Assembly (NCBI GenBank): GCA_035631115.1
Contig: DASQJJ010000006.1
Coordinates: 11,551 to 75,550, forward strand
DNA from: Candidatus Eiseniibacteriota bacterium
GTDB taxonomy: Bacteria > Patescibacteriota > Microgenomatia > Levybacterales > UBA12049
DNA length: 64,000 bases
Reading direction: 5' to 3'
The notes beneath the pieces were generated by a model. The model ran no database searches. It had not been told where the DNA came from and saw nothing but the letters and a program-made list of their open reading frames with translations. Numbering within the stretch: position 1 is the stretch's first letter; every line of letters starts with the position of its first letter. The position numbers and the translations under genes were made by a program. Below are positions 5,544 through 53,788 of this stretch, piece after piece.

Positions 5544-6658
5544 CTTTCATATAAAGAATATGTTAGTTGTGCCATTTTTTTCCATGAGAATGTCTTTGCT
5601 CTTTTTACTCCTGCCTCTTTTTTCTGATTAATATGCGTAACTTCATGGTTATACGCTATCATAAGTGTTTTGGCAATATTTTCTTTATTGTATGGGTCAA
5701 AATATACTGCCGATTCTCCACACACCTCCAAAAAGGAAGGAATTTCAGAGCAGAGGACAAGACATTTGTGATGCATCGCCTCAAGTGCTGGCAACCCAAA
5801 ACCCTCCATAAGAGATGGTGCAACCAGGGCTATCGCATGATGGTACATATAAGAAAGCTGCGAGTCTGTTGTGTGTTTGTAAAAAAGAATATTGGAAAAT
5901 TGTCGTTGTTGTATTTCTTTTTCTAATTTCTTAGAAAAATAGTCTTCTTTCCCAACCAAAATAAGATGGACTTCTGCGTGTGTTTTTTGCACTGCGGCAA
6001 AGGCTTCTATAAGTCTTAAAACATTCTTGTGCGGATAGACATTCCCAACATACAGAAAATATTTTTCTGGCACATCAATTTTTTCTTGTGTTTCAAATTT
6101 TTGGTCTATTCCTTCTGGTGTTATCGATACCTTTTCAGGTTGTGGGTGATAATGATCTATTATTTCCTGCTTGGTTGCACCACTAACAGCAATTATTTTT
6201 TGAGAATGGGCAATAGCATTTTTTAAGACAAATTTATATCCCACTTGCTTAAGGAAATATAACGGCGCAAATAATGTTGAAGCTTTCCCTGTTGAAAAAT
6301 GATCGATTATTAAATCGTGAATAGTAATAACAAATTTTCCTTTATACGAGATTGGGTATGAAAAATAAGGAAAATGAACAAGGTCTAATTTTTGCTCTTC
6401 AAGTATCTTTTTAAATTCTTTTTGCTCGTCAAATGTATGCCAGCGAATATCTGCCAAAACTTTTCTAAAATTCTCCCCAGGAAGCGGGACAGACTCATAT
6501 TCTTCCTTACGGAAAAATAATATATACTCATTTTTGGTGTCTATTTCTGAAAGTTGAAGTACTAAATTACGAATATATCGTCCGACCCCTGTCTCGTACC
6601 ACAACCGACAATCAATTCCAATTTTCATATTATTTTGTATTTTTTTTGTGTAATGCAT
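5522..6658 (-). CDS. glycosyltransferase family 4 (GT-B)
   Basis: MKIGIDCRLW N-terminus (probable true start ~6628), C-terminal EGFGLPALEAMHHKCLVLCSEIPSFLEV. Confidence 0.8.
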   Translation of the reverse strand: MHYTKKIQNNMKIGIDCRLWYETGVGRYIRNLVLQLSEIDTKNEYILFFRKEEYESVPLPGENFRKVLADIRWHTFDEQKEFKKILEEQKLDLVHFPYFSYPISYKGKFVITIHDLIIDHFSTGKASTLFAPLYFLKQVGYKFVLKNAIAHSQKIIAVSGATKQEIIDHYHPQPEKVSITPEGIDQKFETQEKIDVPEKYFLYVGNVYPHKNVLRLIEAFAAVQKTHAEVHLILVGKEDYFSKKLEKEIQQRQFSNILFYKHTTDSQLSYMYHHAIALVAPSLMEGFGLPALEAMHHKCLVLCSEIPSFLEVCGESAVYFDPYNKENIAKTLMIAYNHEVTHINQKKEAGVKRAKTFSWKKMAQLTYSLYESCFSTSA

Positions 6659-10194: not shown

Positions 10195-13100
10195 TTAATA
10201 TTCTAGTAACTGATAATCCTTATCAAAATCAAAAACATATTCATTATTAAGAATAATGCTTGGGTGAGAGTGCTTTATTGCTAAAGATTCGTCAACGTCT
10301 TTGGTCTTTACAACCTTTATCGAATCGTCTCGATATACAAACCATAATCCATCATCAAATCCAACGGGGAAAATCCACGCGTTTCCATATCGCGTTGGCA
10401 TATGAGAAATATACAGCGTTGCATGACTTGGCATATATTCCTTGACTACTCGAAAGTATGCCAACGCACTATATGTTGCAGCACTTGCTTTATTCCACTG
10501 ACTCAATTCACTGGTGATTGCATTTTTTGCATACAGGAAAAATACAATTCCCACCACTGCTATGGCAATTTTTATTGAAAGATTTCTCTGGCCACCGGCA
10601 GGCAGGTTTTTTGCTTTTTGCACTAATGTGCGAAGCAGTGCAATGACAACAAAAACAAATCCCAAAGACCCTAGATAGCTATATCTTTCGCTAAGATTTC
10701 CTAGTCCTAAAAATGGTAAAAGAGCAATAAAGCCAAATAGAAACCCAAACAATACGAATCTCAACAAATCAGTATCTACCTTTTTCCATAATTTATAGCA
10801 GGCAAGTACAACAACCACCAACATACTAACAAGTCCAAGGCCAACCCAAAGTGCATGCATTTTTGCGACCTGCCTTATTGCAAATTGCCATGCAACCACT
10901 TTCTCTCCAATAAAGGATGCAAGGAGATAATTTGTATAATTCGCAATAAAATTTGGAATAAGGTGAGAAAGACTATATGAATAGTCTCCACCAAGTGCCG
11001 CAACATGTGCTGACGAACGAATAAAAAGATATATACCATCAAAAATAATAAATGGTACAAGAGAAATAATTGTATTTTTTGTAAGCTTTTTCTTTAAAAG
11101 GAATACGTCTGTTATAAGAAAAAGTAATGGCAAGACGACTCCCATTTCGTAGGTAAAAAGACCCAACACGCCTAATAAAAGCGACAAAACATATAATGCT
11201 CTTGATTGTTTTTGTCTCCAATATACATACGCAACAAGCGCGTAGACCATAAAAAGCGTTGACCAGCTAATGGACAGGGTGGAAATCCAAAAAAGTACTT
11301 CTGAATGAACTGGCAAAATGAGATAGATTGCTGACAAAGTCCATGCCCAGAGTTTTTTCTTAAAAAGTGCCATTCCCAACAAATAGACTCCAATTCCTAT
11401 AAAGAAATGGACAAAAATTCCAATTGTATGGTACCCAACAGGTTGGAAAGAAAATACTGAGTACATGACAAACATAATAATTTTTGCTAAGGGCCGGTAG
11501 AAAAACCCTTGCGCATCATAAAACCATCGTGCAATATCTCCCGGGTGTGCTGTTGCTCCCCACTTAAGCCAAGTAAAATCATCTGCTACAAAAAAGTTAG
11601 TGAGTCCTCCTCCAAATACAACAAACACAAGAATACAAAGCACTAAGAGAAGGAAAAAATGAGATGACAAAACTTTTCTAAGATTTTGCATATAGACAAC
11701 ACGCTTGGGGAGCGTAAGTGAAAGTCCACCAATAACTACACCCAAAAGTATCCAGAGTGTCTCAGCCACTTTGGACGCCTCAAACACGTCTATAAGTCCG
11801 GCGTTAAGTATAAGGCCCACAACGCCTCCCACTGTTCCCAAGGCAAGATATCTGGTTGTTGGAGAAGTTTCTGGAAGTACTTCTCTGAGAAAAATTGCAA
11901 AAACAATAAATATAAGCGCAAATGTTGCAAAACCTATAAATCCTGATTCGCCAAGAAGACGCAAGTAGTCGTTGTCTGTTGCGAGGGTAATTGTTGAATA
12001 ACCTTTTCCAAAAGGAGGATCTGTCATAAATGCAGCCCAAGCATTAGGCCATTCAGCCTGAAAACGAGTAGTAAATGAAATGTCATAGACCAGTGCTTTT
12101 TGGGTAAGAAAATTCCCCGACACTGTTGAAATCTCGAGTCCTCCATTGGCAAGCTTAAGTCGCTGAGCCTCAGAAGTACGTATGGGACTTCTTATGTATG
12201 CATTTGTTGTTGCAACTGCTGTTTGGGAAAATGTAATAAAACTAGACCCTGTTGGAAGATTTTGTGTGGGAGGAGGTGCCTCAACAACAACTGAATCATT
12301 TTTGGAAATTTTCTTTTTAAGACTATCTGGTAAATTATTCTCTGCAAGACCAACAACTCTTCCCTGATTATCTGTGATAACACTAACAACTCGGAAAGTC
12401 TCCAGGAAACGCTTTGCCGTAGACCCTGAGAAAATAAGAAGAAACGCAATGCTTAAGAGTACCACTGGAAGAAGAAGTTTCTTTTTTTTCATGAGTATAA
12501 GAGAAACAGTCGCACCAACTAAATATGCACTAAAAGATACGCGAGACGCAGTGAAAAGAAGAAGCATAAGTGAGGTAATAAATAAAATTCCAACACCAAT
12601 CTTTGCTGCGACTTTTTTTACTAATACAAAAATACCAAGAAGCACGGGCAACATAACTACCAAAAACGCTGCTAAATCATAATGTCCTCCAAATGTTGAG
12701 GTAATTCGTGCTTCCTGAGGCAGACATAACGCTAAGCCTTTTGCAAATTCCTCGTTACCTGTTTGGAAAGATGGAAAACAATATGAGAAATGCTCAAAAA
12801 ATTTAGGGAATATACCCCACAGCACTAAGTAAAACCGTTGCCCAAATCCGTACAAAACAACGGCAGAAAGCGCAATGCACGTAACAATAATAAAATCCCT
12901 AATGTCCTTTGCACTCCGAATAGTTGAAAAAGCAATAAAGAATAAAATCATATACTCTATTCTTCTTCCATATTCAAGAATTGCTAAATGTGGGAAAAAT
13001 CCAACCAAATGTGGTCCAATAAATACAAGCGAAATAAGAAGAGATATCAATCCAGAAAGCCAGTAGATAGCAACCGGGATACCTACGGGCAGAGGCAATT

Positions 13101-15910: not shown

Positions 15911-16441
15911 TTATATTCCAGGATAAATTACCGCTAATCGCTTTTCTGGGATACCCAGTATTTCCATAGCATCTTTTTTTGTTGCTTTCGAGATGCAGAT
16001 AATTCTCTCCACTTCTTTTTTAACCCACTCTAATCTTGCTTTCTGAACTTTCACTATCTTCGCGTCTGTTTCTTGTGGGTATGTGTATACAATCATGTCG
16101 TACAAAATGGTAACTTTCTTTGCTTTGGTTGGAGGCTGTGTCCAATCGGATGAAATAAATACATCTACCGGACCAATAAGCCATTCTATCGGTACAAGAT
16201 GTAGTTTGTTCCAAAGAATATTTAAAAAGGTTGGTGGAAATTTAAAAATTTTAAATTGAACTTTTGAATTTGATTGAAAATTAAAAATTGAAAATTGAAA
16301 ATTTTTCCGCATTGAGGAATAGAAAAGAATATACTCGTTTTCTTTATCCTGTTGAACCAAGTTCTGAACAAGATTAGTAAGGTATGTTGCCACCCCTGTC
16401 CCCTGATAGGCTAGTTGAGAAATATCTATTCCAATTTTCAT
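15911..16441 (-). CDS. GT4 N-terminal-domain-only protein (truncated paralog or remnant); contains heptamer repeat tract
   Basis: 176 aa; MKIGIDISQLAYQGTGVATYLTNL...RLAVIYPGI then stop, 3 bp before the next full GT4 start; low-complexity insert RKNFQFSIFNFQSNSKVQFKIFKF encoded by the 16229..16305 repeat. Confidence 0.5.
   Translation of the reverse strand: MKIGIDISQLAYQGTGVATYLTNLVQNLVQQDKENEYILFYSSMRKNFQFSIFNFQSNSKVQFKIFKFPPTFLNILWNKLHLVPIEWLIGPVDVFISSDWTQPPTKAKKVTILYDMIVYTYPQETDAKIVKVQKARLEWVKKEVERIICISKATKKDAMEILGIPEKRLAVIYPGI
16229..16305. repeat. AT-rich imperfect heptamer tract, (TTGAAAA)-type x4 at 16274..16301, in-frame inside CDS 15911..16441
   Basis: tttgattgaaaattaaaaattgaaaattgaaaatttttcc; about 36/38 identity to the core of the 18466..18526 repeat. 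Confidence 0.8.
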
Positions 16442-16659
16442 ATCTTCTTTTTATTGTGAAGCAAAAAAAGAAAAATTGCCAGAAGTAAGCATATACCACC
16501 ATAGTAGGTAAATCTTTCCGCAGTAAAAAATACCCAGGAAGCAAAAAGCGGCATAGAAATAACTATACATCCTAACCCAGCTGCTACTACATAATAAGGA
16601 TTTCTCTTCCAAAGAAGGAAAGCGAGAAAAATAACAAAGATAATATCCTGAATTTTCAT
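16438..16659 (-). CDS. small two-TM membrane protein (DUF2304-like partner of polyprenol-phosphate GT2)
   Basis: 73 aa, two hydrophobic helices; immediately downstream of and 4-bp overlapping a GtrB-like GT2, the usual context of DUF2304. Confidence 0.35.
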   Translation of the reverse strand: MKIQDIIFVIFLAFLLWKRNPYYVVAAGLGCIVISMPLFASWVFFTAERFTYYGGICLLLAIFLFLLHNKKKI

Positions 16660-17627
16660 GTACCAATAACGATTTCTTCTTTACTTCTTGTATCACTCCT
16701 ATACCTCAAGCGGAAATGTGTTGCATGATCTACGGTAGAAAATCGTGTCATGGTATTAAGAAAAAGATCTGCCAAAAATCCTGCAACAAGCACTTGAAGT
16801 CCTGCCAACAACAAAACTATTCCCAAAAAAAGCAAAGGTCTTGTTCCTATAGAATGTCCAGAGAAATGCACAAAAGAAAGGTAAACCAAAACGATAATGC
16901 CAATAAAAGAGAGAATACCTCCTAGCATACCAAAGAAGTGCAAAGGTCTTCTTCCATACTTTGTTAGGAAAAGCATAGTAAGAATATCTGGTAAATCTTT
17001 CCACAATTTCGAAAATCCATACTTTGATTTACCATATGCCCTTTCGCTATGGGCAACAGCAACCTCTGTAACAATAAATCCTTCTCCAAAAACAAGGAGT
17101 GGAATAAAGCGATGCATTCCTCCATATAGACGAAGACTCTTTGCTGCATCACTTGTGTAGAGTTTAAGACCACAATTGTAGTCGTGAAGTTGCAATCCCC
17201 AAAAAATGCTTGCAAAAAAATTAAATAACCTTGATGAAACCACTTTTTGTATTGGATCTTTTCTTTTTTTTCTCCATCCACAGACAAGGTCGTATCCTTC
17301 TCTTGCTTTTTTATAGAGTGTTTGGATTTCCTCTGGTCTATCTTGTAAATCCGCATCGAGAGTAACAATATATTCTCCTTTTGCCATTTGAAATCCAAGC
17401 GTTAATGCTTCTGATTTTCCCTGATTTTTCCTAAAGGAAAAGAGTTTTATTTTTTTATCTCTCTGAGTCATTTTCTTAAGAAAATCAAGACTTCCATCTG
17501 TAGACCCATCATCAATGAAAAGTATTTCGTATTGCTTGTCTAGTTTCTGCAGGGCTTTTTGCAATTCTGGAAGAAAGTGGGGCAGACTCTCGTATTCATT
17601 AAAAACAGGAATAACTGCACTAATCAT
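16656..17627 (-). CDS. polyprenol-phosphate sugar synthase (GtrB/ArnC/DPM1-like GT2 with C-terminal TM pair)
   Basis: MISAVIPVFNEYESLPHFLPEL...YEILFIDDGSTDGS...VTLDADLQDRPEEI...CGWRKKRKD plus two C-terminal TM helices (LHFFGMLGGILSFIGIIVLVYL / LLFLGIVLLLAGLQVLVAGFLADLF). Confidence 0.75.
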   Translation of the reverse strand: MISAVIPVFNEYESLPHFLPELQKALQKLDKQYEILFIDDGSTDGSLDFLKKMTQRDKKIKLFSFRKNQGKSEALTLGFQMAKGEYIVTLDADLQDRPEEIQTLYKKAREGYDLVCGWRKKRKDPIQKVVSSRLFNFFASIFWGLQLHDYNCGLKLYTSDAAKSLRLYGGMHRFIPLLVFGEGFIVTEVAVAHSERAYGKSKYGFSKLWKDLPDILTMLFLTKYGRRPLHFFGMLGGILSFIGIIVLVYLSFVHFSGHSIGTRPLLFLGIVLLLAGLQVLVAGFLADLFLNTMTRFSTVDHATHFRLRYRSDTRSKEEIVIGT

Positions 17628-19684
17628 CCTTGTATTTTACCATTTTTACCCATAAATAAGCCAGCATATCCAAAAAGTACCAGTAATCCTGCCACAATAA
17701 GAGTGGCTATACTTATTTGTACTCCCTGCTCTACCCATTGCTGAGGCTTGTACACAATAGTTATGTCGTAATTTCCATCTTTGGGCAAGATGAAGCTATT
17801 AAATCTTTTGTCAAAGAGTGTGGAGTCAATCGATTTTCCTCCCACTTGTGCCTGCCAGAATGGGTCGTACATATCCGAGAAAATAAGCATTTCCCCTTTT
17901 GTAACATTTTGCACATTAACAGCATATTGAGTTGTTGCATTTTGCATAAAAAAACTTTTTCCTTGCCCTGTCAGCCAAAAATGATTCTTTACTTGACTCA
18001 GGGCGAATACATGTATTTTTCCAAAACCATTAAGTTCAGTAAGATACGACAATCTACGTACTTCTCTTACAGTATCCAAATAAACTTTCTGGTCGTATTT
18101 TCTATCGGTGAGAAAAAACTCACCCTGACTATCATATGGGACCACGACATACCCAATACTTGCTTCTCGCAATTCATTCTCTGTTTTGTTTTCATGTAAT
18201 GCATCTAACACTCCGGATATACTTGCAACGTTAAAAAAGTTATACGCGTCAACAGAAGGATGATTTTCCGAAATGTGTGCACCGAATTTTTGTGGTTGTG
18301 GTACCCAAAGTATGCGGCCAAAACTACTTTGATTATTTAAAAATGTGTCAAGCGTAGTATATTCCTTAGGAAAAGTATGTTGCTGAAATGTCCCCCCAAG
18401 CTGTCCAACAACAGCTGGCCGAACTAGAAAAACCAGACAGCCTACGAAAAGTAAGAAAAACATAATTTGAAAATTGAAAATTTTTGGTTTGATTGAAAAT
18501 TTAAAATTGAAAGTTGAAAATTTTTCTTTTTGAGATAACCAATTAGATGTTTTAAAAATAGTAAATGGAATCAATACCGAATATGATATTGCAATTATCA
18601 TGTACCACTTGGTCGGGTCTCGAAACATAATAAAACCAGGTACATGATCAAAAAGCCAAATGTACGTATTGCCAAATGGATCATTTGCGCCTTTTGCCAG
18701 AAATACTCCAAGCAGTCCAATTAATGAAAAGAATAAAATAGCTAGTTTTTCTTTCTTTTGCTTGATATCTATGAAAAATAATGATCCAAAGGCAAGAATC
18801 GGGAGCAAAAGAAATTCCCACCTCATAAAATGAGTAAAACCAAATATATTTTCAGGCCAATTTGGATGCAAAAGACCTAGCGCATCCTCAAATTTTGCAA
18901 AACTAAAAAATTGAATTGATTTTGAAGATGTGTAAATATCACCAAATTGACGAATTGCCTTCCCATGCGTAAGAAGTGTTGGTAAGAGCCAAAATGCATG
19001 GAGACCAATAATAAGTATTCCGGAAAGAGTAAAAAGAAGGAAATATTTTTTTACTTTTTCTCCAGTGAGGCCTGGTAATTCAAAAACGAATCTCAGCGTG
19101 AGAAGAAAAAGCAGTATATATCCAATACGGATATCTAAAAGAAAAATAAGAGAAAAAACCAAAGAAAAAATAACTGCACTTCTCAGTGTAATTTTTTGAA
19201 GGAGTTCTTCGAATGCGATAAAACCAAATGGAGCAAGACTGTAGGATAAGGCAATACCTGTTTGGCCTCCTCCTACTAAAAGAAGTGCATATGTGTTGGC
19301 GATATAAAGAAACCCCGCCAAAAGAGCAAAAACCTTTGACTTAAAAAAATAAAAATACAGAGACCATGCAGAAAGAAAACCAAAAAGAAGATATGGCCAA
19401 AACCAAAATATTTTTTCATACCAATTCCAACCTAGAAAGAGTGCCGTTTTTATTGTGGCAAGAAAATAAGATTCTAACCATAGCGTTGATAAATTGCTTG
19501 CACCCATTCCCATATGTCTTCCATCCCATGCAGGGAGATTGTTAATGTCAAGAATTGCTCGGTTCCAATAATAAACCCAGTCTCCACTTACGAGTAAATT
19601 CCCGGAAAACCAATTTTTGAAGACAAGCAGCAGGGGTATAAAAATAACAACAAAAAGAATAAATGTACCCAAGAATTTTTTCAT
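17624..19684 (-). CDS. large polytopic membrane protein, YfhO-like/GT-C-like, C-terminal beta domain + TM anchor; contains heptamer repeat tract
   Basis: 686 aa; about 10 N-terminal TM helices, C-terminal ...DPFWQAQVGGKSIDSTLFDKRFNSFILPKDGNYDITIVYKPQQW... then TM anchor, like the YfhO C-terminus; in-frame low-complexity insert KFSTFNFKFSIKPKIFNFQ from repeat 18466..18526. Confidence 0.5.
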   Translation of the reverse strand: MKKFLGTFILFVVIFIPLLLVFKNWFSGNLLVSGDWVYYWNRAILDINNLPAWDGRHMGMGASNLSTLWLESYFLATIKTALFLGWNWYEKIFWFWPYLLFGFLSAWSLYFYFFKSKVFALLAGFLYIANTYALLLVGGGQTGIALSYSLAPFGFIAFEELLQKITLRSAVIFSLVFSLIFLLDIRIGYILLFLLTLRFVFELPGLTGEKVKKYFLLFTLSGILIIGLHAFWLLPTLLTHGKAIRQFGDIYTSSKSIQFFSFAKFEDALGLLHPNWPENIFGFTHFMRWEFLLLPILAFGSLFFIDIKQKKEKLAILFFSLIGLLGVFLAKGANDPFGNTYIWLFDHVPGFIMFRDPTKWYMIIAISYSVLIPFTIFKTSNWLSQKEKFSTFNFKFSIKPKIFNFQIMFFLLFVGCLVFLVRPAVVGQLGGTFQQHTFPKEYTTLDTFLNNQSSFGRILWVPQPQKFGAHISENHPSVDAYNFFNVASISGVLDALHENKTENELREASIGYVVVPYDSQGEFFLTDRKYDQKVYLDTVREVRRLSYLTELNGFGKIHVFALSQVKNHFWLTGQGKSFFMQNATTQYAVNVQNVTKGEMLIFSDMYDPFWQAQVGGKSIDSTLFDKRFNSFILPKDGNYDITIVYKPQQWVEQGVQISIATLIVAGLLVLFGYAGLFMGKNGKIQG
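18466..18526. repeat. AT-rich imperfect heptamer tract, (TTGAAAA)x2 + tttgattgaaaatttaaaattgaaagttgaaaattttt, in-frame inside CDS 17624..19684
   Basis: read directly; shares a ~40-bp near-identical core with 16268..16305. Confidence 0.8.
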
Positions 19685-25767: not shown

Positions 25768-28426
25768 CTCCCAACCATAGTAAAAATCCACCCAAGGAAA
25801 ATATTGTTACAAAAAATCCAAGCAGAAATGTCTTTGAAAAAAATGAAAAAACATAGGTGTGTTGTCCCGGCCTTGTCTTAACTTCTAAAAATCTATTGTT
25901 TTCCAAGTGAGCTTTTTTCCCATCAATAGTAACACTCCACCCGGGGTAATAACTTTCCAAAAGTGAAAGAATCGCAGGCTGATCACTCCCTTCTCTAATT
26001 GTTATTGTATTTACTCCAAAAGAGGCTATTGTTTTTTTTATTACCTCTCCTTTATTTGTAATAAGTTGTGAGAATGGGCGCGCATCATGCACTTTGAATA
26101 TTATTGTGTCCTCATTTACATACGCCTTAGTAGAATCCCACGGAAGACTTGTGACAATATTGTGCGGAGAAATTACGTATCCTGGCAATATATCGTGATA
26201 TGTAGATGGTGGAGGATAAGAAACATGAGTATAACTGCTTACCAAACTATTCTTAAGCAGCAATCCATAATTTGTATTGAGAAGGAGTGTATTATACTGA
26301 TATGCCAAGTCATAGGGTACAAGATGAATATTATTTACAACTAGCACGAGAGATTGATTAGCATTATCCTTTTGTATCCATTTAAAAACATCCGAGTAGA
26401 GAGGGTAATTCAATGTGTCAATTTTTTGATCTGTAACCAACTGGGGCTTTATTAAAATAGTCTCAAAGAAAATGATGGCTACCACAAGATTTAATACGAG
26501 AACAACAAGTATCAATATTTTTCTTTTACTTAGAAAGTCACGACAGAATAGTCCAAAGAAAAGAAGAAGAATCACAGAAAGATAAGCAAAGATTCTACTT
26601 GGGACTCGATAGTACTGCAAAAAACTAACTGCACTAACTAACCAATGAAAAGGATTCCATTTCCACGCAGGCATGGAAATAGAAATAAAGAGCAAGAAGA
26701 GAATGGGTAGCAAAATATACTTTCTGCTCAATACGATTTTTCTTTTAAGGAATACCCACACAAAACCTAAAAGGGTAAATGGACCAATAAACGAAATTTT
26801 CTCCAAATCTCCCCATGCTGTAGATATATATTGTTTCAAATTAACAGCGGCAAATGGAGCATCAAACGGAATAAAAATATACCTAAGCATTCCAACGATA
26901 TTCATGCTTCCAGTAAAAGGATCTCTGCTTTTCTCAAGATAGTTTGTCAATTCAAGATAGGGAATAATTTTTACTGATGCAAAAAGAAGAAAAAACAAAA
27001 CAGAAATTCCCAGATAGACTGATGCCCTTTTATCTTTAAAAAGAAAAAAGATAAGGATTACCCCCAATCCATACAGAGTATACGTTGCTGTGTATGTTTC
27101 TCCAGAAAACAAGAATAGTGCGATTTCTAATCCCGCGACTCCTGACCAAAATAGATTTTTTTTATCTATTACTTTTTGCAATGAAAAAATCACAAATGGC
27201 AATAATGGATACGATAGTGTTTTTTCAATTTGCCCAGTATCTAATTTTGCTGCTAGATAAGAACTCGATGCATATGTCAGCGCAATAAACAAAGATAAAT
27301 ATGAAGAGTTAAGATACCTTTTCGTAAGTATATACATAGATTCACAGGCAAAAAATATAACAAGAAGGTACATAATTTTTAATGCAGTATCGTAGGGAAA
27401 TACAAGAAGAGGAATAGCAACCAACGGGTTATATACTCCATAGAGAGGATCTGCAACAGTAGGTATTCCCTGAACAACATATGGGTTCCATAAGGGAAAG
27501 GCATGATGTTGTAAGAGAGAGTTTTTAAAATAAAGATGAGGAACATCATTTCCATTCAAGTCATTCGCCCTTACGACATGCGTTGTTAGGAGAATGGGGC
27601 TTAGAATGATAATACTAAAAAGGAAAAATAATACGTGTAAACCAAATGCGCGTACATATTTATTTTTTATCTCGAAAAATATGGGTATTTTTTCATCCTC
27701 TTTGGTTATGGAGATTCTTTTTTTGGAACTTTTTCTTCGTGAATACACTATTAGCGCGATTGTCCTAACAATTTTTTGTATTGTATCTTGTATTGTTGTA
27801 TCTAGTTTTTGACCATTTCTTTTATTGAGCACGTAAAGAAAGTAAACAAACAAAGGAATAAGATAGATACTCGACAATACGAGCGAATCTGGATTAGAAA
27901 AAAGCATGCGCGTTCTCTTAAAAAATAAGAATAAAAAGTCTTTTGGAGAATATAAGAATTGCTTGGAGTATACATATTTACTTGTAAAGAAATCTCCCAC
28001 ATTCAGAGTATTCGGAGAAGCATTTGGTATTGTTGTAACAAACTCATATTGTCTTCCCTTTGAATTTGTAATTGAAGGAAATCCAAATACAAGAAAACCC
28101 TTTTCATTTACCTGATTTACCTCTGTTTGGGTAGAGTAAAACGAATGTGAATTATTTTTTTCTCTTAGTGCAAATGTAATCAGACCGCGGCCAGTACTAT
28201 TTGGCTTTATCTCCCCTACAACTCTTATAGCAATAATACCTAAGTTATTTTCCTCTGCAATAAATGATCCAGTTGTTCTATTGGCCTTATCATTTTGTTG
28301 AGATAAAGAATGCTTATACACAATTATGGTAAAAGGACTATAGGGATTAATAAAAATAGCGGCAAAAAACCAAAAAATGATGTAAATAAATATTGCGAGA
28401 AATTGTAATCTATATTTTGTGATCAT
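25724..28426 (-). CDS. YfhO-like polytopic membrane glycosyltransferase candidate with extra N-terminal TM + beta-rich domain
   Basis: 900 aa. The N-terminal ~230 aa (…ENNLGIIAIRV…FGFPSITNSKGRQYEFVT…) is paralogous to the standalone 28442..29554 protein. This is followed by a multi-TM core and a C-terminal SYYPGWSVTIDGKKAHLENNRFLEVKTRPGQHTYVFSF plus TM anchor, the YfhO hallmark. Confidence 0.55.
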   Translation of the reverse strand: MITKYRLQFLAIFIYIIFWFFAAIFINPYSPFTIIVYKHSLSQQNDKANRTTGSFIAEENNLGIIAIRVVGEIKPNSTGRGLITFALREKNNSHSFYSTQTEVNQVNEKGFLVFGFPSITNSKGRQYEFVTTIPNASPNTLNVGDFFTSKYVYSKQFLYSPKDFLFLFFKRTRMLFSNPDSLVLSSIYLIPLFVYFLYVLNKRNGQKLDTTIQDTIQKIVRTIALIVYSRRKSSKKRISITKEDEKIPIFFEIKNKYVRAFGLHVLFFLFSIIILSPILLTTHVVRANDLNGNDVPHLYFKNSLLQHHAFPLWNPYVVQGIPTVADPLYGVYNPLVAIPLLVFPYDTALKIMYLLVIFFACESMYILTKRYLNSSYLSLFIALTYASSSYLAAKLDTGQIEKTLSYPLLPFVIFSLQKVIDKKNLFWSGVAGLEIALFLFSGETYTATYTLYGLGVILIFFLFKDKRASVYLGISVLFFLLFASVKIIPYLELTNYLEKSRDPFTGSMNIVGMLRYIFIPFDAPFAAVNLKQYISTAWGDLEKISFIGPFTLLGFVWVFLKRKIVLSRKYILLPILFLLFISISMPAWKWNPFHWLVSAVSFLQYYRVPSRIFAYLSVILLLFFGLFCRDFLSKRKILILVVLVLNLVVAIIFFETILIKPQLVTDQKIDTLNYPLYSDVFKWIQKDNANQSLVLVVNNIHLVPYDLAYQYNTLLLNTNYGLLLKNSLVSSYTHVSYPPPSTYHDILPGYVISPHNIVTSLPWDSTKAYVNEDTIIFKVHDARPFSQLITNKGEVIKKTIASFGVNTITIREGSDQPAILSLLESYYPGWSVTIDGKKAHLENNRFLEVKTRPGQHTYVFSFFSKTFLLGFFVTIFSLGGFLLWLGVTFFVKKSVFLAYL

Positions 28427-41593: not shown

Positions 41594-42913
41594 TTATTGC
41601 TCGTTGTAAAGCAGTGTTGACCATAAAGTAAGAAGAAGAATCCATCCAAAATTTATATACGAAAAAACGAAAGCAAGCTTTTGTGTTTTGGAAAAAAATA
41701 GTGGAAAAAGCGTTATTCCAGAGAGTACAAGAAAAAAACGGAAAACGAAAAAGGAAAATCCCAAAACTTGCGCCCAAGATGTGTTGAGCATAGAAAGTCC
41801 TGTAAAAAGAAGGAAGAAAAATGTTAGTAGATAATTCTTATTAAAGTATTCCTTTATAAAAAGAGCCAGGGAAACAACAAGGAATGGATAAAAAGGATAT
41901 CGATACCATCCATGACCTGGCTCATTTGGTATTGCATAAACAAAAATTGCAAAGTACGCAAGAAGCGGAAATAATACAAAGATATGTTTTCGAAAGTCCT
42001 TAACTGCTACAATAAAAAACGATATCCATCCAAAGTATATCCATCCATCCGTAAAAAGTCTGTCTGTTAAGACTGGATAAGTAAATAAAGCAAACATGCT
42101 GTTAAAGGAAATATCATATCTATTTAGCTGTAATTTCCATAGATTAAAAAATAATTCTTTGTCAAAATATATTCCATACATAAAAAATATTGAAAAAATT
42201 GTTAGTACAATTGCAAGAAAAACCCAGATATCTCTATATTTTCGAAAGAAAAGAAAAAGTAAAACAATAGCAAGCGTTGCCGCCCCCCAAGGCACTTTTG
42301 CTAGAAGTAGTAATCCACACAAAATTGCAGCCCAATTGCGAAACCAAACATTCTTATTTTTTATATATTTTGCAACAAGAAATAAAGTAAAAAGAAAAAA
42401 AGGTATAAAAAAATTCTCATTTTCAACTAACCGAGATCCAACAACAACGGATGGAATAATTGCATACAAAAATGATGAGAGTAATGCAGTCCTTTCTCCA
42501 TACATATCTTTTACAAAAAGGAAAAGGATTCCTATGCTCAACACACCCAGTAGTAAAGATAATCCTCGAATATGAACAAGGTCTACATGAAACATATCTT
42601 TCACCCCACTCAAAATCGCATACCCGCCAACCACCAAGCCAAACAAAGGTGGATGCTCTAGGTACGGCGTGACAAGGCGGAAATGTGTATGTTGATAGGT
42701 AATATCTTTTGCATGAGTGTATTGCGGGTGTGGAGACCACGAAGTAGGCACATGATGCTGAATAAGACTCACTCCCTGCCATGCCCATGCATATTCATCA
42801 AATGTTGCTCCAAGCCGAGGCCATTCATATAAATTGTTACTTCGTAGCAAAAATCCAAGAAGCAAAATACCTAATAAAACGACATACTGCCATTTTTTAA
42901 AAAATTTATCCAC
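41594..42913 (-). CDS. GT-C fold membrane glycosyltransferase (PMT_2/ArnT-like)
   Basis: 439 aa; first loop WPRLGATFDEYAWAWQG (DE motif), >10 TM helices. Confidence 0.55.
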   Translation of the reverse strand: MDKFFKKWQYVVLLGILLLGFLLRSNNLYEWPRLGATFDEYAWAWQGVSLIQHHVPTSWSPHPQYTHAKDITYQHTHFRLVTPYLEHPPLFGLVVGGYAILSGVKDMFHVDLVHIRGLSLLLGVLSIGILFLFVKDMYGERTALLSSFLYAIIPSVVVGSRLVENENFFIPFFLFTLFLVAKYIKNKNVWFRNWAAILCGLLLLAKVPWGAATLAIVLLFLFFRKYRDIWVFLAIVLTIFSIFFMYGIYFDKELFFNLWKLQLNRYDISFNSMFALFTYPVLTDRLFTDGWIYFGWISFFIVAVKDFRKHIFVLFPLLAYFAIFVYAIPNEPGHGWYRYPFYPFLVVSLALFIKEYFNKNYLLTFFFLLFTGLSMLNTSWAQVLGFSFFVFRFFLVLSGITLFPLFFSKTQKLAFVFSYINFGWILLLTLWSTLLYNEQ

Positions 42914-50494: not shown

Positions 50495-52119
50495 GCATAC
50501 AGTGATGGTTGTCCATCAAGACTATAAAAGACTTCCTTAATTATAGTATTTTTCCTTTTTGTATTGGTAACATACAATGTGTCTTTTTTTGTTGGATTGG
50601 GACCAATCATATGAAAGTATATGGTATCAATAACATGCGTTTCTTGAAATCCACCTGATTTTGTACCACCATTTTTTATGTACCTTGCTGGATCATACAT
50701 ACTATTAAAGAGGTAGAGCATATATGACTGATATCCATTATTTCTATTTGTTATGTCTACATATTGGTATGCGTTTTTTTCTTTTACAACATACGTCATT
50801 GCCTTACTTAACGCATACTGAAATGACTCTGATTGTCTTATGGGGAATACTACAAAATAGTTTACGATGAATTGATATAACCCACTCAGTACGACAACTG
50901 AGAAAAGCAGTACAAAACCAAAATATACTGGCCTGCTATGTTTTTGTAAAAATGACAAACTCATATTAATACCTAATGCAGTAATAATTTGAGGCACAGG
51001 AAGAAGCGTGTATGCTCTCATTGCGTGCGGAGCTTGTGTCGTAAGACCAGGTGCCAAAAAGTCTATCCCTGTCCATGCAAGAAGAAGTACGGTAACTTTC
51101 TTATTAATGCTTTTCGAAAGAAAAAGCAGGAAGATTCCTATGAAAAGAAATGGCGCCTCCCATACGTAAAGAAGTCCAGTATTAGGCGCTTTAAACTGCT
51201 CATCTCCAGAATTACCAAAAAGCCAAGGAAGACTAAAGTGAGAAAGATAGTTTTGAATGAAAATTTCCCCAGTGATAACTCTTCTATTATTAAGTATTTC
51301 ACCTATGTAGTTATTATGTTGCTTTGCATATAAGATATCTTTTGCTGATTGTGCGTACCGTGGATTATCGGTAAAAACTGATGTTCCTTTTAGACGGATA
51401 AGTCCACCTGGAGACAATGAAACAACAACCATTGGAATACTAATAAGTATGAATAATGCAAATCCTACAAGTGCATGTTTTTTTACTTCCAGAATATTTT
51501 TCCAAAAAAGAATAATAAGCACAAAAAGAATGCATGGAGTGAATACCTTTTCACTTTGATATCCGTAAAAGGTTAACCCAAAAAAAAGAAAAGATCCCAT
51601 GAGAGTCCATGGATTTTTACTCCTTAAAAAAGAGGTGAAAAGAAGGAGTGCTACTACAACTAAGGTTAATCCCAAATTTACTTCGTGACCAAGTCTTGAT
51701 AGATATATATGCCATGGGGAAATTGCTAAAAGAAACATAGCAAGCAGTGCAATGTATTCCTTTTTTTTGTGAGTTACTAAAAGATTCTTAGTAAGAAAAT
51801 ATGTCATAATAACTGTTGCAATAGACATAATTACAGAAGGAAGTCTTACAGACAGAACCTGAAGACCAAATATTTTTACGAAAGGAATTACCGTGTACAC
51901 ATACAATGCAGGTCTATAATCATCATATGCACGAAGAAGTATGGGCAGGAAGTATCCATACTCATCTCTTCCAGTATGGAGAATTGAGTATGCATTCCAA
52001 CCAATAGTCGCTTCATCTAGAGATGCGCTCGGCGGAATTAATGACAGAAATGAAAATCGAAGAGCAATTGCCAAAAGTATAATAAAAACAAAAAGTATTT
52101 TTCTTACCATATTACTCAC
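50476..52119 (-). CDS. GT-C fold membrane glycosyltransferase (PMT_2/ArnT-like), tandem paralog 1 of 3
   Basis: 547 aa; SLDEATIGWNAYSILHTGRDEYGYFLPILLRAYDDYRPALYVY first-loop motif. Confidence 0.6.
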   Translation of the reverse strand: MSNMVRKILFVFIILLAIALRFSFLSLIPPSASLDEATIGWNAYSILHTGRDEYGYFLPILLRAYDDYRPALYVYTVIPFVKIFGLQVLSVRLPSVIMSIATVIMTYFLTKNLLVTHKKKEYIALLAMFLLAISPWHIYLSRLGHEVNLGLTLVVVALLLFTSFLRSKNPWTLMGSFLFFGLTFYGYQSEKVFTPCILFVLIILFWKNILEVKKHALVGFALFILISIPMVVVSLSPGGLIRLKGTSVFTDNPRYAQSAKDILYAKQHNNYIGEILNNRRVITGEIFIQNYLSHFSLPWLFGNSGDEQFKAPNTGLLYVWEAPFLFIGIFLLFLSKSINKKVTVLLLAWTGIDFLAPGLTTQAPHAMRAYTLLPVPQIITALGINMSLSFLQKHSRPVYFGFVLLFSVVVLSGLYQFIVNYFVVFPIRQSESFQYALSKAMTYVVKEKNAYQYVDITNRNNGYQSYMLYLFNSMYDPARYIKNGGTKSGGFQETHVIDTIYFHMIGPNPTKKDTLYVTNTKRKNTIIKEVFYSLDGQPSLYAWTIRE

Positions 52120-53788
52120 CTCTTACAATTTCTATAGCTCCCTCATTGTTAAGGTACTCTATCCTCTTAAGTGCTGTAGTACTCTCCGAAAAATCACTTG
52201 GTCTACCAACATAAAGAATATTTGAATCTTTCTTTTCGTCTTTCCAGTTGATTGGGCGGAATTCATATTTTCCGAAAGAGTGATTTTCTCGAAATCCGCC
52301 AGATGCAAAGCGTGTTTCTTTTTGATATAAGTTTGGGTCATAACGCAAGTAAAATAAGAAAAACATGTACGACTGATCTAGTGGTGGCTGATTGGAAACA
52401 ATAACGTGCTTAGCAGGTAATTTCGAAATAGTTGCTATTGCTTCCTGATACCCATACTGCCAATCTAGCGAATTATAGTAATTTTGTTGAACAAAATATT
52501 GGTCCAGGAAATATATAAAATTAAAAAGAAAAATGCAAAATGAAAAAAGAATGACTAAATATTTAATTTGTATTTTTGCTATGTGGTATGTACTTCTTAG
52601 TAACTTTTCAAAAACAGTAAAGACTCCAAATGCGATAAATATTTGGAAAGTGGGAAGAAAATTAAGAGTTCGTACCGCATGAGGAACTCCTGTTGTAACT
52701 GATGCAGGAAGTGGAGCAAGTAAAAACCACCCAAATATAAAAATCTTTGTGTTAAGGGAATATTTTGAAAAAAGAAAACAATATATACCAATAAGCAGAA
52801 ATGGTAATTCCCAAAGATACAACAATCCCATAAATGGTGCGTGGTGTCTACTCACATCCCCATTAAGAAAAAGCCACCGCAGGTCAAAATGCGTTAGGTA
52901 ATTTGCAATAATCTCCTTTCCATATATAACGCGCCTATTATCAATGAGTAGGCCTACATAATCATGATTCTCTTTGTCTTGTCTGACTCTCAGGCTTGTT
53001 TGTGTCGAATTGCTCGTATCGGAAAATACAGAAACACCTTTTGCACGGGCCAGCGCATTGGTATTAGTTGCTAAATAAAATCCTAATGGCATAACAAGAA
53101 TAAGTCCAACAAGAATAGAAGAGAAAAGATACTTTTTTGAAACCTTCTTTATATTGTTAAAAGAAATAAAAATAAGAAGGCAGACGAAAAGTGGAACAAA
53201 AACTTTTTCACTTTGATATACATATAACGACGCGACAAAAGCAATTACGGACAAAGGCAATAGGTAGTACTTCTGCATTCCTTTGAGAAAAAAATATGCT
53301 CCAATAATATTAAGAGATAAACCAACATTAGATTCAAATCCAATTCTTGAAAATTGTATATGCCAGGGTGAAAGCGCTAAGAGAAGCGCAATAAGGAAAG
53401 ATAATTTATTATTATGGAATAGGTCCCTGCATAAAAAATAAACAACAACCACAGTTGTTATACCAAAAAGAATTGACGGCATTCTCACCGCCTCTATACT
53501 GAGTCCAAAAATAAAAAGGGATGGAATAATAAGATAGCTATAGAGCGCGGGTTTGTAATCATCAAATGATCGAAGCACTATTGGCATAAATTGACCATAT
53601 TCGTCTCTTCCCGTGTGCAAAATAGAGTAAGCATTGTATCCCAGGGCTGCTTCATCCCAATCTGGCGAAGGAGGCACATGCCCAACCAGAAATAGACGCA
53701 GAGCAGAAGTTACAATAATTAAAAGTATTACGAGAAAATATGTTTTTGTTATTTGAAATTTGAAATTTGAAATTTGAAATTTTTTCAT
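52112..53788 (-). CDS. GT-C fold membrane glycosyltransferase (PMT_2/ArnT-like), tandem paralog 2 of 3; 5-prime heptamer repeat tract
   Basis: 558 aa; DWDEAALGYNAYSILHTGRDEYGQFMPIVLRSFDDYKPALYSY; N-terminal extension MKKFQISNFKFQITK encoded by (ATTTGAA)x4 at 53751..53778. Confidence 0.6.
   Translation of the reverse strand: MKKFQISNFKFQITKTYFLVILLIIVTSALRLFLVGHVPPSPDWDEAALGYNAYSILHTGRDEYGQFMPIVLRSFDDYKPALYSYLIIPSLFIFGLSIEAVRMPSILFGITTVVVVYFLCRDLFHNNKLSFLIALLLALSPWHIQFSRIGFESNVGLSLNIIGAYFFLKGMQKYYLLPLSVIAFVASLYVYQSEKVFVPLFVCLLIFISFNNIKKVSKKYLFSSILVGLILVMPLGFYLATNTNALARAKGVSVFSDTSNSTQTSLRVRQDKENHDYVGLLIDNRRVIYGKEIIANYLTHFDLRWLFLNGDVSRHHAPFMGLLYLWELPFLLIGIYCFLFSKYSLNTKIFIFGWFLLAPLPASVTTGVPHAVRTLNFLPTFQIFIAFGVFTVFEKLLRSTYHIAKIQIKYLVILFSFCIFLFNFIYFLDQYFVQQNYYNSLDWQYGYQEAIATISKLPAKHVIVSNQPPLDQSYMFFLFYLRYDPNLYQKETRFASGGFRENHSFGKYEFRPINWKDEKKDSNILYVGRPSDFSESTTALKRIEYLNNEGAIEIVRGE
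53751..53778. repeat. perfect heptanucleotide tract (ATTTGAA)x4 followed by ATTTTTT, inside codons 4-13 of CDS 52112..53788
   Basis: read directly: atttgaa atttgaa atttgaa atttgaa attttttcat(ATG on minus strand at 53788..53786). Confidence 0.9.

What the first reader, a model, noticed from the sequence alone, without database searches (positions are those of the whole stretch)
16229..18526. Two near-identical ~40-bp AT-rich heptamer-repeat cores inserted in-frame in unrelated genes
16268..16305 (tttgattgaaaattaaaaattgaaaattgaaaatttttc) and 18488..18525 (tttgattgaaaatttaaaattgaaagttgaaaatttttc) differ at only about 2 positions. One sits in a GT4 N-domain fragment and the other in a 686-aa YfhO-like membrane protein. 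Both are on the same DNA strand and in-frame, and both encode FNF(Q/K)FSI..KIF(K/N)F low-complexity peptides. A third related tract is at 53751. This looks like a small dispersed repeat family that colonises coding sequence without breaking frame. It could be a mini-insertion sequence, a hotspot for recombination between glycosylation genes, or a slippage-prone tract. I do not recognise it as a described element.
Basis: seen in the sequence. Interest (0 to 1): 0.65.

Follow-up and report, generated by a model that had tools for sequence, protein, structure and literature searches.

The report
In-frame heptanucleotide repeat arrays
The two look-alike 39-base tracts are four-copy tandem repeats of a 7-base unit, one case of a repeat class that fills the sugar-coat genes of Levybacteria, is inherited at the same gene positions across species, and is read straight through as protein, so they are not a jumping element.

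Summary
16269-16307 and 18488-18526 differ at 2 of 39 bases, and 53751-53782 is a perfect (ATTTGAA)x4.6 array.

These are heptanucleotide simple-sequence repeats, a class already reported as over-represented in bacteria, usually with about four units and no known function. In 80 Levybacteria loci plus the window:
- Period 7 gives 89 arrays; periods 5, 6 and 8-15 give 0-3 each.
- Perfect arrays peak sharply at 30-34 nt.
- 108 of 115 arrays lie in frame in ORFs.

Orthologues of both host genes carry arrays at the same sites. The unit differs between species ((AATTTTC)4, (AATATCC)4, (AATCTCA)4 and others), and array-bearing and array-less orthologues of the 176-aa protein have the same loop length. 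Nine species encoding NFQFSIFNFQ use identical codons. So the DNA periodicity is kept alike, not the peptide.

I found no frameshifted alleles and no length differences among 99.6-100% identical strains. Essential genes (TsaD, TIM, FolD, tRNA synthetases) host the same arrays elsewhere.

Best reading: slippage-type arrays homogenised in place and tolerated in loops, tails and gene junctions. Phase variation is not excluded. This is a new variant of a known kind, of moderate interest.

The parts
16273..16303 (-). Heptamer array 1. Sense strand: AATTTTC AATTTTC AATTTTT AATTTTC AAT (4.4 units). Encodes NFQFSIFNFQ in the beta2-beta3 loop of the 176-aa GT4 N-domain protein. The 39-mer core is 16269-16307; the similarity to array 2 extends to 16259-16307.
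   Evidence: Loop position from the AlphaFold model (strands 36-42 and 61-66; pLDDT 70-75 between them).
18492..18522 (-). Heptamer array 2. Sense strand: AATTTTC AACTTTC AATTTTA AATTTTC AAT (4.4 units). Encodes KFSTFNFKFSI in a loop of the 686-aa membrane protein. The 39-mer core is 18488-18526.
18467..18482 (-). Short second block (TTTTCAA x2.3) in a shifted register, encoding KIFNFQ just before the next transmembrane helix. This part is conserved as protein (K-S-K-I-F-N-x-Q) in most orthologues.
53751..53782 (-). Heptamer array 3. Sense strand: (AAATTTC)x4.6, perfect, directly after the ATG of the GT39/PMT_2 gene (MKKFQISNFKFQITKT).
15911..16441 (-). Host gene 1: conserved stand-alone GT4 N-terminal-domain protein, 176 aa.
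17624..19684 (-). Host gene 2: 686-aa polytopic membrane protein conserved in Patescibacteria. No family assignment was confirmed.
52112..53788 (-). Host gene 3: GT39/PMT_2-type glycosyltransferase, 558 aa.

Best explanation
The tracts are heptanucleotide simple-sequence repeats of the long-SSR / STRR kind, not transposed copies.

Each sits at a position where orthologues across Levybacteria also carry a heptamer array:
- a surface loop of the stand-alone GT4 N-domain protein;
- the linker before the last transmembrane helix of the 686-aa protein, which is also where that gene is split in some species;
- the N-terminal tail of a GT39 enzyme.

The ORF reads straight through the array. Because 7 and 3 share no factor, all three codon phases are used in turn, so any unit gives a 7-residue periodic peptide: TTTTCAA gives FSIFNFQ and TTTCAAA gives FQISNFK.

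Inferred mechanism: neighbouring units mispair during replication or repair. This keeps the units of one array alike while the unit sequence drifts between species (concerted evolution), mostly without changing length. Selection on the host protein then acts as a filter. It allows only units with no TAA, TAG or TGA in any phase on the sense strand. That requirement explains the T-run, C, A-run 'TCAA' look and the strand bias. It also allows only loops, tails and gene junctions, and only lengths that keep the frame.

The two window 39-mers look alike because both sites hold four copies of the commonest unit followed by the usual truncated 'AATC' end. I regard the arrays as tolerated passengers. 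A change of one unit would truncate each product, but I found no sign that this happens at appreciable frequency.
For: Shown:
- Period specificity: 89 arrays of at least 3.5 copies at period 7, against 0-3 for periods 5, 6 and 8-15, and 0 in shuffles, in 1.32 Mb. Perfect-array lengths are bimodal, with a peak at 30-34 nt.
- Same site in orthologues. The 176-aa family consensus is RRNFQFSIFNFQSNSNV. 20 of 79 species have a perfect array of at least 28 nt there, and the loop length mode is 22-23 aa with or without an array. The 686-aa family shows the same.
- Unit turnover at the same site: (AATTTTC)4, (AATTTCC)4, (AATATCC)4, (AATCTCA)4, (AAATTCA)4, (AGTATCC)4. Mixed arrays have one variant in adjacent units: L019, L051, L022, L052.
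- DNA-level rather than peptide-level identity: 9 of 9 species encoding NFQFSIFNFQ use identical codons, including TTC (background 20%) and TCA (25%).
- 108 of 115 arrays lie in frame in plus-strand ORFs. The arrays whose units contain stops sit exactly at gene junctions.
- No allele is rescued by changing one or two units, apart from junction arrays.
- No indels in 10 arrays across two sets of 10 contigs at 99.6-100% identity.
- Essential genes host the same array in frame in other Microgenomates: TsaD, TIM, FolD, MurG, tRNA synthetases.
- The unit is not special: a same-composition control heptamer is as frequent in viral contigs, 37 against 39 loci.

Literature: heptamer SSRs are over-represented in bacteria, mostly with four units, and polymerase slippage has been proposed as the cause (PMC4692102, PMC4679880).
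Against: - Arrays are about 25 times denser in ORFs homologous to the window's glycan-cluster genes (97 in 913 kb) than in other ORFs of the same loci (1 in 223 kb). A pure passenger model does not predict this. The counts are not phylogenetically independent.
- The sharp mode at about 31 nt also holds for intergenic (AATTTTC)n arrays from unrelated bacteria and for Xanthomonas (PMC4692102). Frame constraint alone therefore cannot explain it.
- Homogenisation without length change is inferred, not observed.
- Consensus assemblies hide minority length variants.
- Why 7 nt and no other period remains unexplained.
Confidence: 0.58

Rival explanations
1. Contingency loci. The arrays are kept because gaining or losing one 7-nt unit shifts the frame. 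This would switch glycosyltransferase genes off and on and vary the cell-surface glycan, for example against phages or hosts.
For: - The unit length is not a multiple of 3. A change of one unit truncates the three window products to 55/70, 396/411 and 10/47 aa; a change of three units keeps the frame.
- Density is about 25 times higher in glycan-cluster-type ORFs.
- Many arrays are perfect and lie early in the gene (position histogram).
- Concerted evolution implies that misalignment events do occur.
- Phase-variable SSRs in glycosyltransferase genes are classical in Haemophilus, Campylobacter and Neisseria (from my own knowledge; papers listed).
Against: - No OFF alleles among about 250 arrays; 108 of 115 are in frame.
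- No length polymorphism in 10 arrays across about 20 strain-level contigs.
- There are only about 4 units, and the number is nearly invariant across species.
- The same arrays occur in frame in essential genes such as TsaD, TIM, FolD and tRNA synthetases.
Confidence: 0.15
2. A cis-acting nucleic-acid signal in DNA or mRNA. Examples: binding sites for a periodic RNA- or DNA-binding protein, an unstructured AU-rich translation or processing element, or an internal or antisense promoter within the very long co-directional glycan operon.
For: - Periodicity is conserved at the DNA level while the peptide changes.
- Arrays also lie at gene junctions and directly beside start codons, as described for TAACTGA repeats (PMC4679880).
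- There is a weak antisense TTGAAA-17-GAAAAT match.
Against: - Units differ between arrays within one genome, for example 13 arrays with many different units in L067. That rules out a single sequence-specific partner.
- Promoter-like matches are no more frequent than in shuffles.
- There is no Rfam match.
Confidence: 0.08
3. The two window copies are related by a recent DNA transfer between the two genes, either gene conversion or a mini mobile element.
For: - 49 nt at 88% identity, including non-repeat flanks (GAAAAA upstream, TCAAA downstream), read in different codon phases.
- The extended motif NFQFSIFNFQSNSN recurs in unrelated proteins in metagenomes, for example L106 and L171.
- Short-patch recombination that includes an array does occur (TsaD).
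Against: - Each copy resembles its own orthologues, flanks included. For example, the L033 orthologue of the 686-aa gene has (TTTTCAA)4 followed by TCAAATC, and the 176-aa family consensus is AGAAAT(TTTCAAT)4CAAAT.
- The arrays have no inverted-repeat ends. Target-site duplications were not specifically searched for.
- There is no length difference from array-less orthologues.
- There are only two copies in 64 kb.
Confidence: 0.07
4. A selected protein motif. A Phe-rich alternating peptide, such as a membrane-interface beta hairpin, recurs in glycosylation enzymes, and the DNA similarity is a by-product of AT-rich codon usage.
For: - The downstream part of each loop is conserved as protein with ordinary substitutions: K-S-K-I-F-N-x-Q in the 686-aa family and N-V-x-I-K-x-F-K-F-P-P in the 176-aa family.
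- In full-length GT4 paralogues the array overlaps a beta strand.
Against: - Orthologous sites carry chemically unrelated peptides that are each exact translations of a different heptamer: FQFSIFNFQ, IQNSKFKIQN, LKSQISNLKS, IQYPISNIQ.
- There is no synonymous variation in 9 species.
- Arrays whose units contain stop codons exist at junctions.
- The loop has reduced model confidence.
Confidence: 0.04

Closest known systems
Heptanucleotide long simple-sequence repeats in prokaryotes (Mrazek, Guo and Shah 2007, as summarised in PMC4692102 and PMC4679880), e.g. GGGAATC arrays of Xanthomonas and GGGGAYT arrays of Nostoc (Rehm et al. 2015, PMC4692102)
   Same: - Tandem 7-nt units.
- Period 7 is strongly over-represented compared with other periods.
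- Most arrays have about four units.
- Occasional inverted pairs; I saw (TTGAAAA)4-loop-(TTTTCAA)4 hairpins in high-GC contigs.
- Arrays lie between or in the same genes in related species, with sequence variation.
- No established function.
   Different: - The known arrays are overwhelmingly intergenic and were reported as depleted on the coding strand of ORFs. Here 108 of 115 are translated in frame.
- The arrays here are AT-rich and cannot form G-quadruplexes. The four-unit preference therefore cannot be explained by G4 formation, as was proposed for Xanthomonas.
TAACTGA heptamer direct repeats of Beggiatoaceae, cyanobacteria and Bacteroidetes (MacGregor 2015, PMC4679880), and cyanobacterial STRR heptamers (Mazel et al. 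1990, recalled from memory)
   Same: - 2-6 copies of a heptamer.
- Often directly beside start codons or overlapping the stop of the upstream gene.
- In the stop-free orientation a few lie inside ORFs near the ends of proteins.
- A patchy phylogenetic spread.
   Different: - TAACTGA is one dominant unit per genome. Levybacteria use many units per genome.
- TAACTGA carries stops in all frames in the forward orientation and is mainly intergenic.
SSR-driven phase variation (contingency loci) in glycosyltransferase genes of Haemophilus, Neisseria and Campylobacter
   Same: - A repeat inside surface-glycan genes.
- The unit length is not divisible by 3.
- A change of one unit destroys the reading frame.
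   Different: - Contingency loci have many copies, vary between strains, and are often OFF in sequenced genomes.
- Here there are about 4 copies, no variation between strains, and no OFF alleles.
Rickettsia palindromic elements (Ogata et al. 2000, recalled from memory) and Nostoc small dispersed repeats (Elhai et al. 2008, recalled from memory; not readable here)
   Same: - Short repeated DNA that persists in frame inside protein-coding genes.
- From memory, the Nostoc elements are often embedded within tandem heptameric repeats. That matches the 30-nt GC-rich hairpin elements I found at unit boundaries of Levybacteria arrays.
   Different: The heptamer arrays themselves are not palindromic and have no defined ends. 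At the two internal-loop sites (the 176-aa and 686-aa genes) they do not behave as insertions relative to orthologues; at the GT39 N-terminus array-bearing orthologues are 12-14 aa longer.

Membership tests
Heptanucleotide SSR (long SSR / STRR class) | Head-to-tail copies of a 7-nt unit, at least 3-4 units | tested here: met
   TRF finds 4.4, 4.4 and 4.6 copies at 91%, 83% and 100% matches.
Heptanucleotide SSR (long SSR / STRR class) | Longer and more frequent than chance in that genome, with period 7 favoured over other periods | tested here: met
   89 arrays at period 7, 0-3 at periods 5, 6 and 8-15, and 0 in shuffles.
Heptanucleotide SSR (long SSR / STRR class) | Copy number varies between close relatives (slippage) | tested here: not met
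   No indels in 10 arrays among contigs 99.6-100% identical. Between species I saw differences of 3 units and 11 perfect against 11 degenerate units.
Contingency locus (phase-variable gene) | Repeat in an ORF or promoter whose unit change shifts the frame or the promoter spacing | tested here: met
   A change of one unit truncates all three window products.
Contingency locus (phase-variable gene) | ON and OFF alleles among strains, populations or genomes | tested here: not met
   No frameshifted alleles among about 250 arrays. Strains are invariant.
Contingency locus (phase-variable gene) | Measured hypermutability of the tract | not testable with these tools
   This needs read-level data or a reporter assay.
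Miniature mobile element inserted in frame (RPE or MITE-like) | Presence or absence relative to orthologues, with defined ends | tested here: not met
   The loop length is the same with and without an array in the 176-aa family. The 686-aa family differs by 21 nt, which is 3 units. Only the GT39 N-terminal tails differ by 12-14 aa.
Miniature mobile element inserted in frame (RPE or MITE-like) | Terminal inverted repeats or a palindrome, and target-site duplication | tested here: inconclusive
   Read by eye only, with no dedicated inverted-repeat search at these sites (one search scanned direct repeats only): the arrays are direct repeats with no inverted-repeat ends. Target-site duplications were not specifically searched for.
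Miniature mobile element inserted in frame (RPE or MITE-like) | Many near-identical copies dispersed within one genome | tested here: inconclusive
   There are two copies in the 64-kb window. Units differ among arrays of one genome. The whole genome was not available.
Protein sequence motif or repeat | Conserved peptide with synonymous variation in the DNA | tested here: not met
   Codons are identical in 9 of 9 species, and peptides at the same site are unrelated.

The most novel reading that the evidence does not exclude
Heptamer arrays and the 30-nt GC-rich hairpin mini-elements form one system. The hairpin elements sit exactly at array unit boundaries (..TC^AA..). A DNA transaction that works in 7-nt steps, for example the integration and excision machinery of the hairpin elements, would write and renew arrays of about 31 nt inside coding loops. 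This would happen in frame and without changing protein length, across Microgenomates and, for intergenic arrays, in other phyla. Such a mechanism would explain the specificity for 7 nt and the four-unit mode, which slippage alone does not explain.
Probability: 0.12. Interest if true: 0.8.

Novelty: new variant of a known kind. Interest (0 to 1): 0.5.

Why it matters
Heptanucleotide repeats have been known since 1990 and 2007 as an oddly over-represented repeat class in bacteria. No function or mechanism is accepted, and they were thought to avoid coding sequence.

In Levybacteria and other Microgenomates they are translated, sit at fixed positions in orthologous proteins, and change unit sequence while staying periodic. 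This gives a natural system in which the process that homogenises the arrays can be told apart from selection on the product. It can be followed codon by codon and species by species.

The AT-rich arrays also show the same four-unit, roughly 31-nt preference. That undercuts the G-quadruplex explanation proposed for Xanthomonas.

There are practical consequences too. The arrays produce low-complexity peptides (FSIFNFQ, FQISNFK and others) that can mislead homology searches and annotation of candidate-phyla-radiation proteins. They also create spurious DNA similarity between unrelated genes.

Tried and rejected
- Phase variation. I looked for frameshifted alleles that a change of one or two units would rescue; only gene-junction arrays came up. 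I compared 2 x 10 strain-level contigs and found no indels.
- A genome-specific unit, which would point to a trans-acting factor or to conversion between loci. Units at the 176-aa site and the 686-aa site of the same genome do not match.
- TTTTCAA as a special motif. A same-composition control heptamer is equally common in viral contigs.
- A known RNA family: none in the window.
- A promoter or terminator: no excess over shuffles.
- Frame constraint (n = 1 + 3k units) as the explanation for the four-unit mode. It fits the coding arrays, but intergenic arrays in other bacteria show the same mode.
- The metagenome scan was meant to give the copy-number spectrum at the 176-aa site.
- Mrazek 2007 and Elhai 2008 could not be read. 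They are cited second-hand or from memory.
- Literature searches for heptanucleotide repeats or phase variation in the candidate phyla radiation / Patescibacteria found nothing.

Full report
**Observation**

The 39-mer at 16269-16307 recurs at 18488-18526 with 2 mismatches and nowhere else in the window at up to 3 mismatches. None of 100 dinucleotide shuffles gave a match. The similarity extends to 49 nt at 88%.

Tandem Repeats Finder reports four period-7 arrays:
- 16273-16303, 4.4 copies;
- 18492-18522, 4.4 copies;
- 18467-18482, 2.3 copies;
- 53751-53782, 4.6 copies, perfect.

All host genes are on the minus strand. They are:
- a 176-aa protein with a Glyco_transf_4 N-domain hit;
- a 686-aa membrane protein with no Pfam hit, and only a far sub-threshold NCBIfam hit;
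- a 558-aa PMT_2/GT39 enzyme.

On the sense strand the arrays read GAAAAA(TTTTCAA)4TCAAA and ATGAAA(AAATTTC)4.6. With the flanks included, the two 39-mers align out of codon phase. The similar peptides follow from arithmetic: a 7-nt unit read in triplets passes through all three phases and yields one cyclic 7-residue peptide.

**Source**

The window proteins match a single 88-kb contig at 100% identity. NCBI labels that contig Candidatus Eisenbacteria. All homologues, however, are Patescibacteria, mostly Levybacteria. The whole window is one co-directional glycan-biosynthesis cluster.

**Orthologues carry arrays at the same sites**

- *686-aa family.* Proteins only 40-45% identical carry KFSIFNFQFSIKSKIFNFQ, KFQISNFKFQIRSK or KFKVQSLKVQLK at the same loop. 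The closest relative, at 60% identity, lacks it. Long and short forms differ by 7 aa, which is 21 nt or 3 units.
- *176-aa protein.* It is not a fragment. More than 2000 homologues exist, and the 120 best listed are 175-208 aa and 65-80% identical. The family consensus reads RRNFQFSIFNFQSNSNV.IKQFKFPP.
- *DNA of 80 species*. The site holds about four tandem heptamers, but the unit differs between species: (AATTTTC)4, (AATTTCC)4, (AATATCC)4, (AATCTCA)4, (AAATTCA)4, (AATTTCA)4, (AGTATCC)4 and others. Many arrays are perfect. Some are mixed, with one variant in neighbouring units.
- *Counts at that site.* 20 of 79 species have a perfect array of at least 28 nt. The loop length mode is 22-23 aa whether or not an array is present.
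- *Codons.* Nine species that encode NFQFSIFNFQ use identical codons at all ten positions, including the minority codons TTC and TCA.
- *GT39 family.* A subset has heptamer-coded N-terminal tails. The nearest array-less orthologues are 12-14 aa shorter.

What persists, therefore, is a heptamer-periodic stretch of DNA at a fixed site. Neither a particular peptide nor a particular unit is conserved.

**A lineage-wide class**

These figures come from 1.32 Mb (the 80 loci plus the window):
- 89 arrays of at least 3.5 copies at period 7, against 0-3 at periods 5, 6 and 8-15. Period 4 matches its shuffles.
- Perfect period-7 arrays decay in number from 14 to about 24 nt, then peak at 30-34 nt with 50 arrays. 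Almost none are 35-38 nt long.
- 108 of 115 arrays lie in frame in plus-strand ORFs. The five outside ORFs have units that contain stop codons and sit at or beside gene junctions, three of them covering the stop of one gene and the start of the next.
- Hosts other than the 176-aa family are mostly GT4, PMT_2 and GT2 enzymes and the 686-aa family.
- Density is 97 arrays in 913 kb for ORFs homologous to the window's cluster, against 1 in 223 kb for other ORFs. These counts are not phylogenetically independent.

In the AlphaFold model of the 176-aa protein (mean pLDDT 83), the array codes part of the loop between strands 36-42 and 61-66, where confidence drops to 70-75. In three species the 686-aa gene is split into two overlapping ORFs exactly at the array site.

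**Tests of a switch**

A change of one unit would truncate the three window products to 55/70, 396/411 and 10/47 aa. A change of three units keeps the frame. Against a switch:
- No array among about 250 looks like an OFF allele.
- In two species, ten contigs each at 99.6-100% identity show no indels in 10 arrays.

**Beyond Levybacteria**

Array length again peaks at 29-33 nt.

In high-GC contigs the arrays form (TTGAAAA)4-loop-(TTTTCAA)4 inverted repeats between genes. In mid-GC contigs many lie just upstream of start codons.

In-frame hosts there include tRNA synthetases, TsaD, TIM, FolD, MurG, PurL, KsgA and prepilin peptidase. The named sources among them are Roizmanbacteria, Shapirobacteria and one Paludibacteraceae. 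Essential genes cannot serve as phase-variable switches, so this argues against switching as a general explanation.

One TsaD gene exists as two alleles. They are identical over 374 nt on one side and 640 nt on the other. They differ in a patch of about 82 nt that holds (AATTTTC)4 in one allele and a degenerate AAACCCT/AAAACCA/AAAATAA array in the other. The flanking codons differ at synonymous third positions. I read this as a short recombination patch imported from a diverged orthologue, which again shows a persistent array site with a different unit.

A control heptamer of the same base composition is as common as AATTTTC in viral contigs (37 against 39 loci), so the unit is not special.

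**Literature**

Heptamer repeats are reported as the most abundant long-SSR class in many bacterial genomes, and slippage tied to the polymerase contact length has been proposed as the cause. In Xanthomonas most GGGAATC arrays have four units, and some form inverted pairs. TAACTGA repeats of 2-6 copies lie beside start codons in Beggiatoaceae, cyanobacteria and Bacteroidetes, with a few inside ORFs near protein ends. No function is established for any of these (PMC4692102, PMC4679880). I found nothing on the candidate phyla radiation.

**Interpretation**

The best-supported reading is that these are heptanucleotide SSRs inherited at each site. They are homogenised by misalignment between neighbouring units, and they are filtered by selection to stop-free units, permissive positions and frame-preserving lengths.

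Shown:
- the period-7 specificity;
- conservation of the site across orthologues;
- turnover of the unit between species;
- codon-level identity;
- in-frame status;
- stability between strains;
- arrays hosted in essential genes.

Inferred:
- the misalignment mechanism;
- that homogenisation is mostly length-neutral;
- that the arrays are passengers.

Unexplained:
- why 7 nt;
- why about 31 nt, even outside genes;
- the enrichment in glycan genes.

The rival readings are phase variation, a cis-acting signal, transfer between the two window genes, and a protein motif. They are weighed in their own sections of this report.

Noticed in passing
L001:12447-12476, L018:3889-3918 and 6258-6287, L032:11063-11092, L038:18561-18590, L063:893-922, L006:19980-20009, L058:7948-7977; two copies in the 176-aa gene of L046: A dispersed family of 30-nt GC-rich elements with consensus CCCACTTCGCCAAGGCTTCGGCGGGCAAGC, coding peptides such as PHFAKASAGKQ. 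In most copies the element sits in frame between two units of a heptamer array, at ..TC^AA.. (two of the nine listed copies have no clear array beside them). They fold as small hairpins with compensatory changes (CCGCC/GGCGG, CCGCT/AGCGG). Other short palindromes (CCGCCAGCTGGCGG) occupy the same loop in L040, L048, L033 and L068. None was found in the window.
   Followed up: partly
window 15911-16441 (-): The 176-aa 'GT4 fragment' is a conserved stand-alone N-terminal-domain protein (more than 2000 homologues; the 120 best listed are 175-208 aa and 65-80% identical). It ends at ...VIYPGI, the point where full-length GT4 paralogues continue into an interdomain linker that often carries a heptamer array. 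It is always followed by a complete GT4 gene.
   Followed up: partly
L011:4570-6587, L025:6595-8620, L071:1694-3732: In three species the orthologue of the 686-aa membrane protein is split into two ORFs (397-399 aa plus 276-281 aa). The stop of the first and the start of the second overlap exactly at the position of the heptamer array.
   Followed up: partly
L176:8668-8750 and 10745-10840; L097:5565-5665; also L173, L128, L146, L158: In contigs of 60-68% GC, sharply bounded AT-rich elements made of (TTGAAAA)4, a 20-35-nt GC-rich loop and (TTTTCAA)4 lie between genes, several per 10 kb. They resemble the inverted heptamer pairs described in Xanthomonas.
   Followed up: partly
L135:1480-2568 (-) against L297:72-1166: Two TsaD alleles are identical except for an ~82-nt patch centred on the array site: (AATTTTC)4 against a degenerate AAAACCA-type array. 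The flanking codons differ at synonymous third positions. This looks like a very short recombination tract.
   Followed up: yes
L141:4467-4543 against L162:about 1890-1971: Two contigs 91% identical carry, at the same intergenic site, 11 perfect GAAAATT units in one and about 11 degenerate units of the same total length in the other.
   Followed up: partly
whole window: The source contig is labelled Candidatus Eisenbacteria in NCBI, but every homologue set points to Levybacteria / Patescibacteria. This is probably a binning or labelling error. The entire 64 kb is one co-directional glycan-biosynthesis cluster with many GT2, GT4 and PMT_2 genes, epimerases and methyltransferases. RecO lies at 96-656.
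   Followed up: partly
window 52517-52551, 41735-41758, 42377-42400, 27781-27803, 49562-49583: Further, weaker period-7 tracts (3.1-5.1 copies, 75-83% matches) appear in the TRF list. The one at 52517-52551 lies inside the same GT39 gene as array 3. They may be decayed arrays.
   Followed up: no
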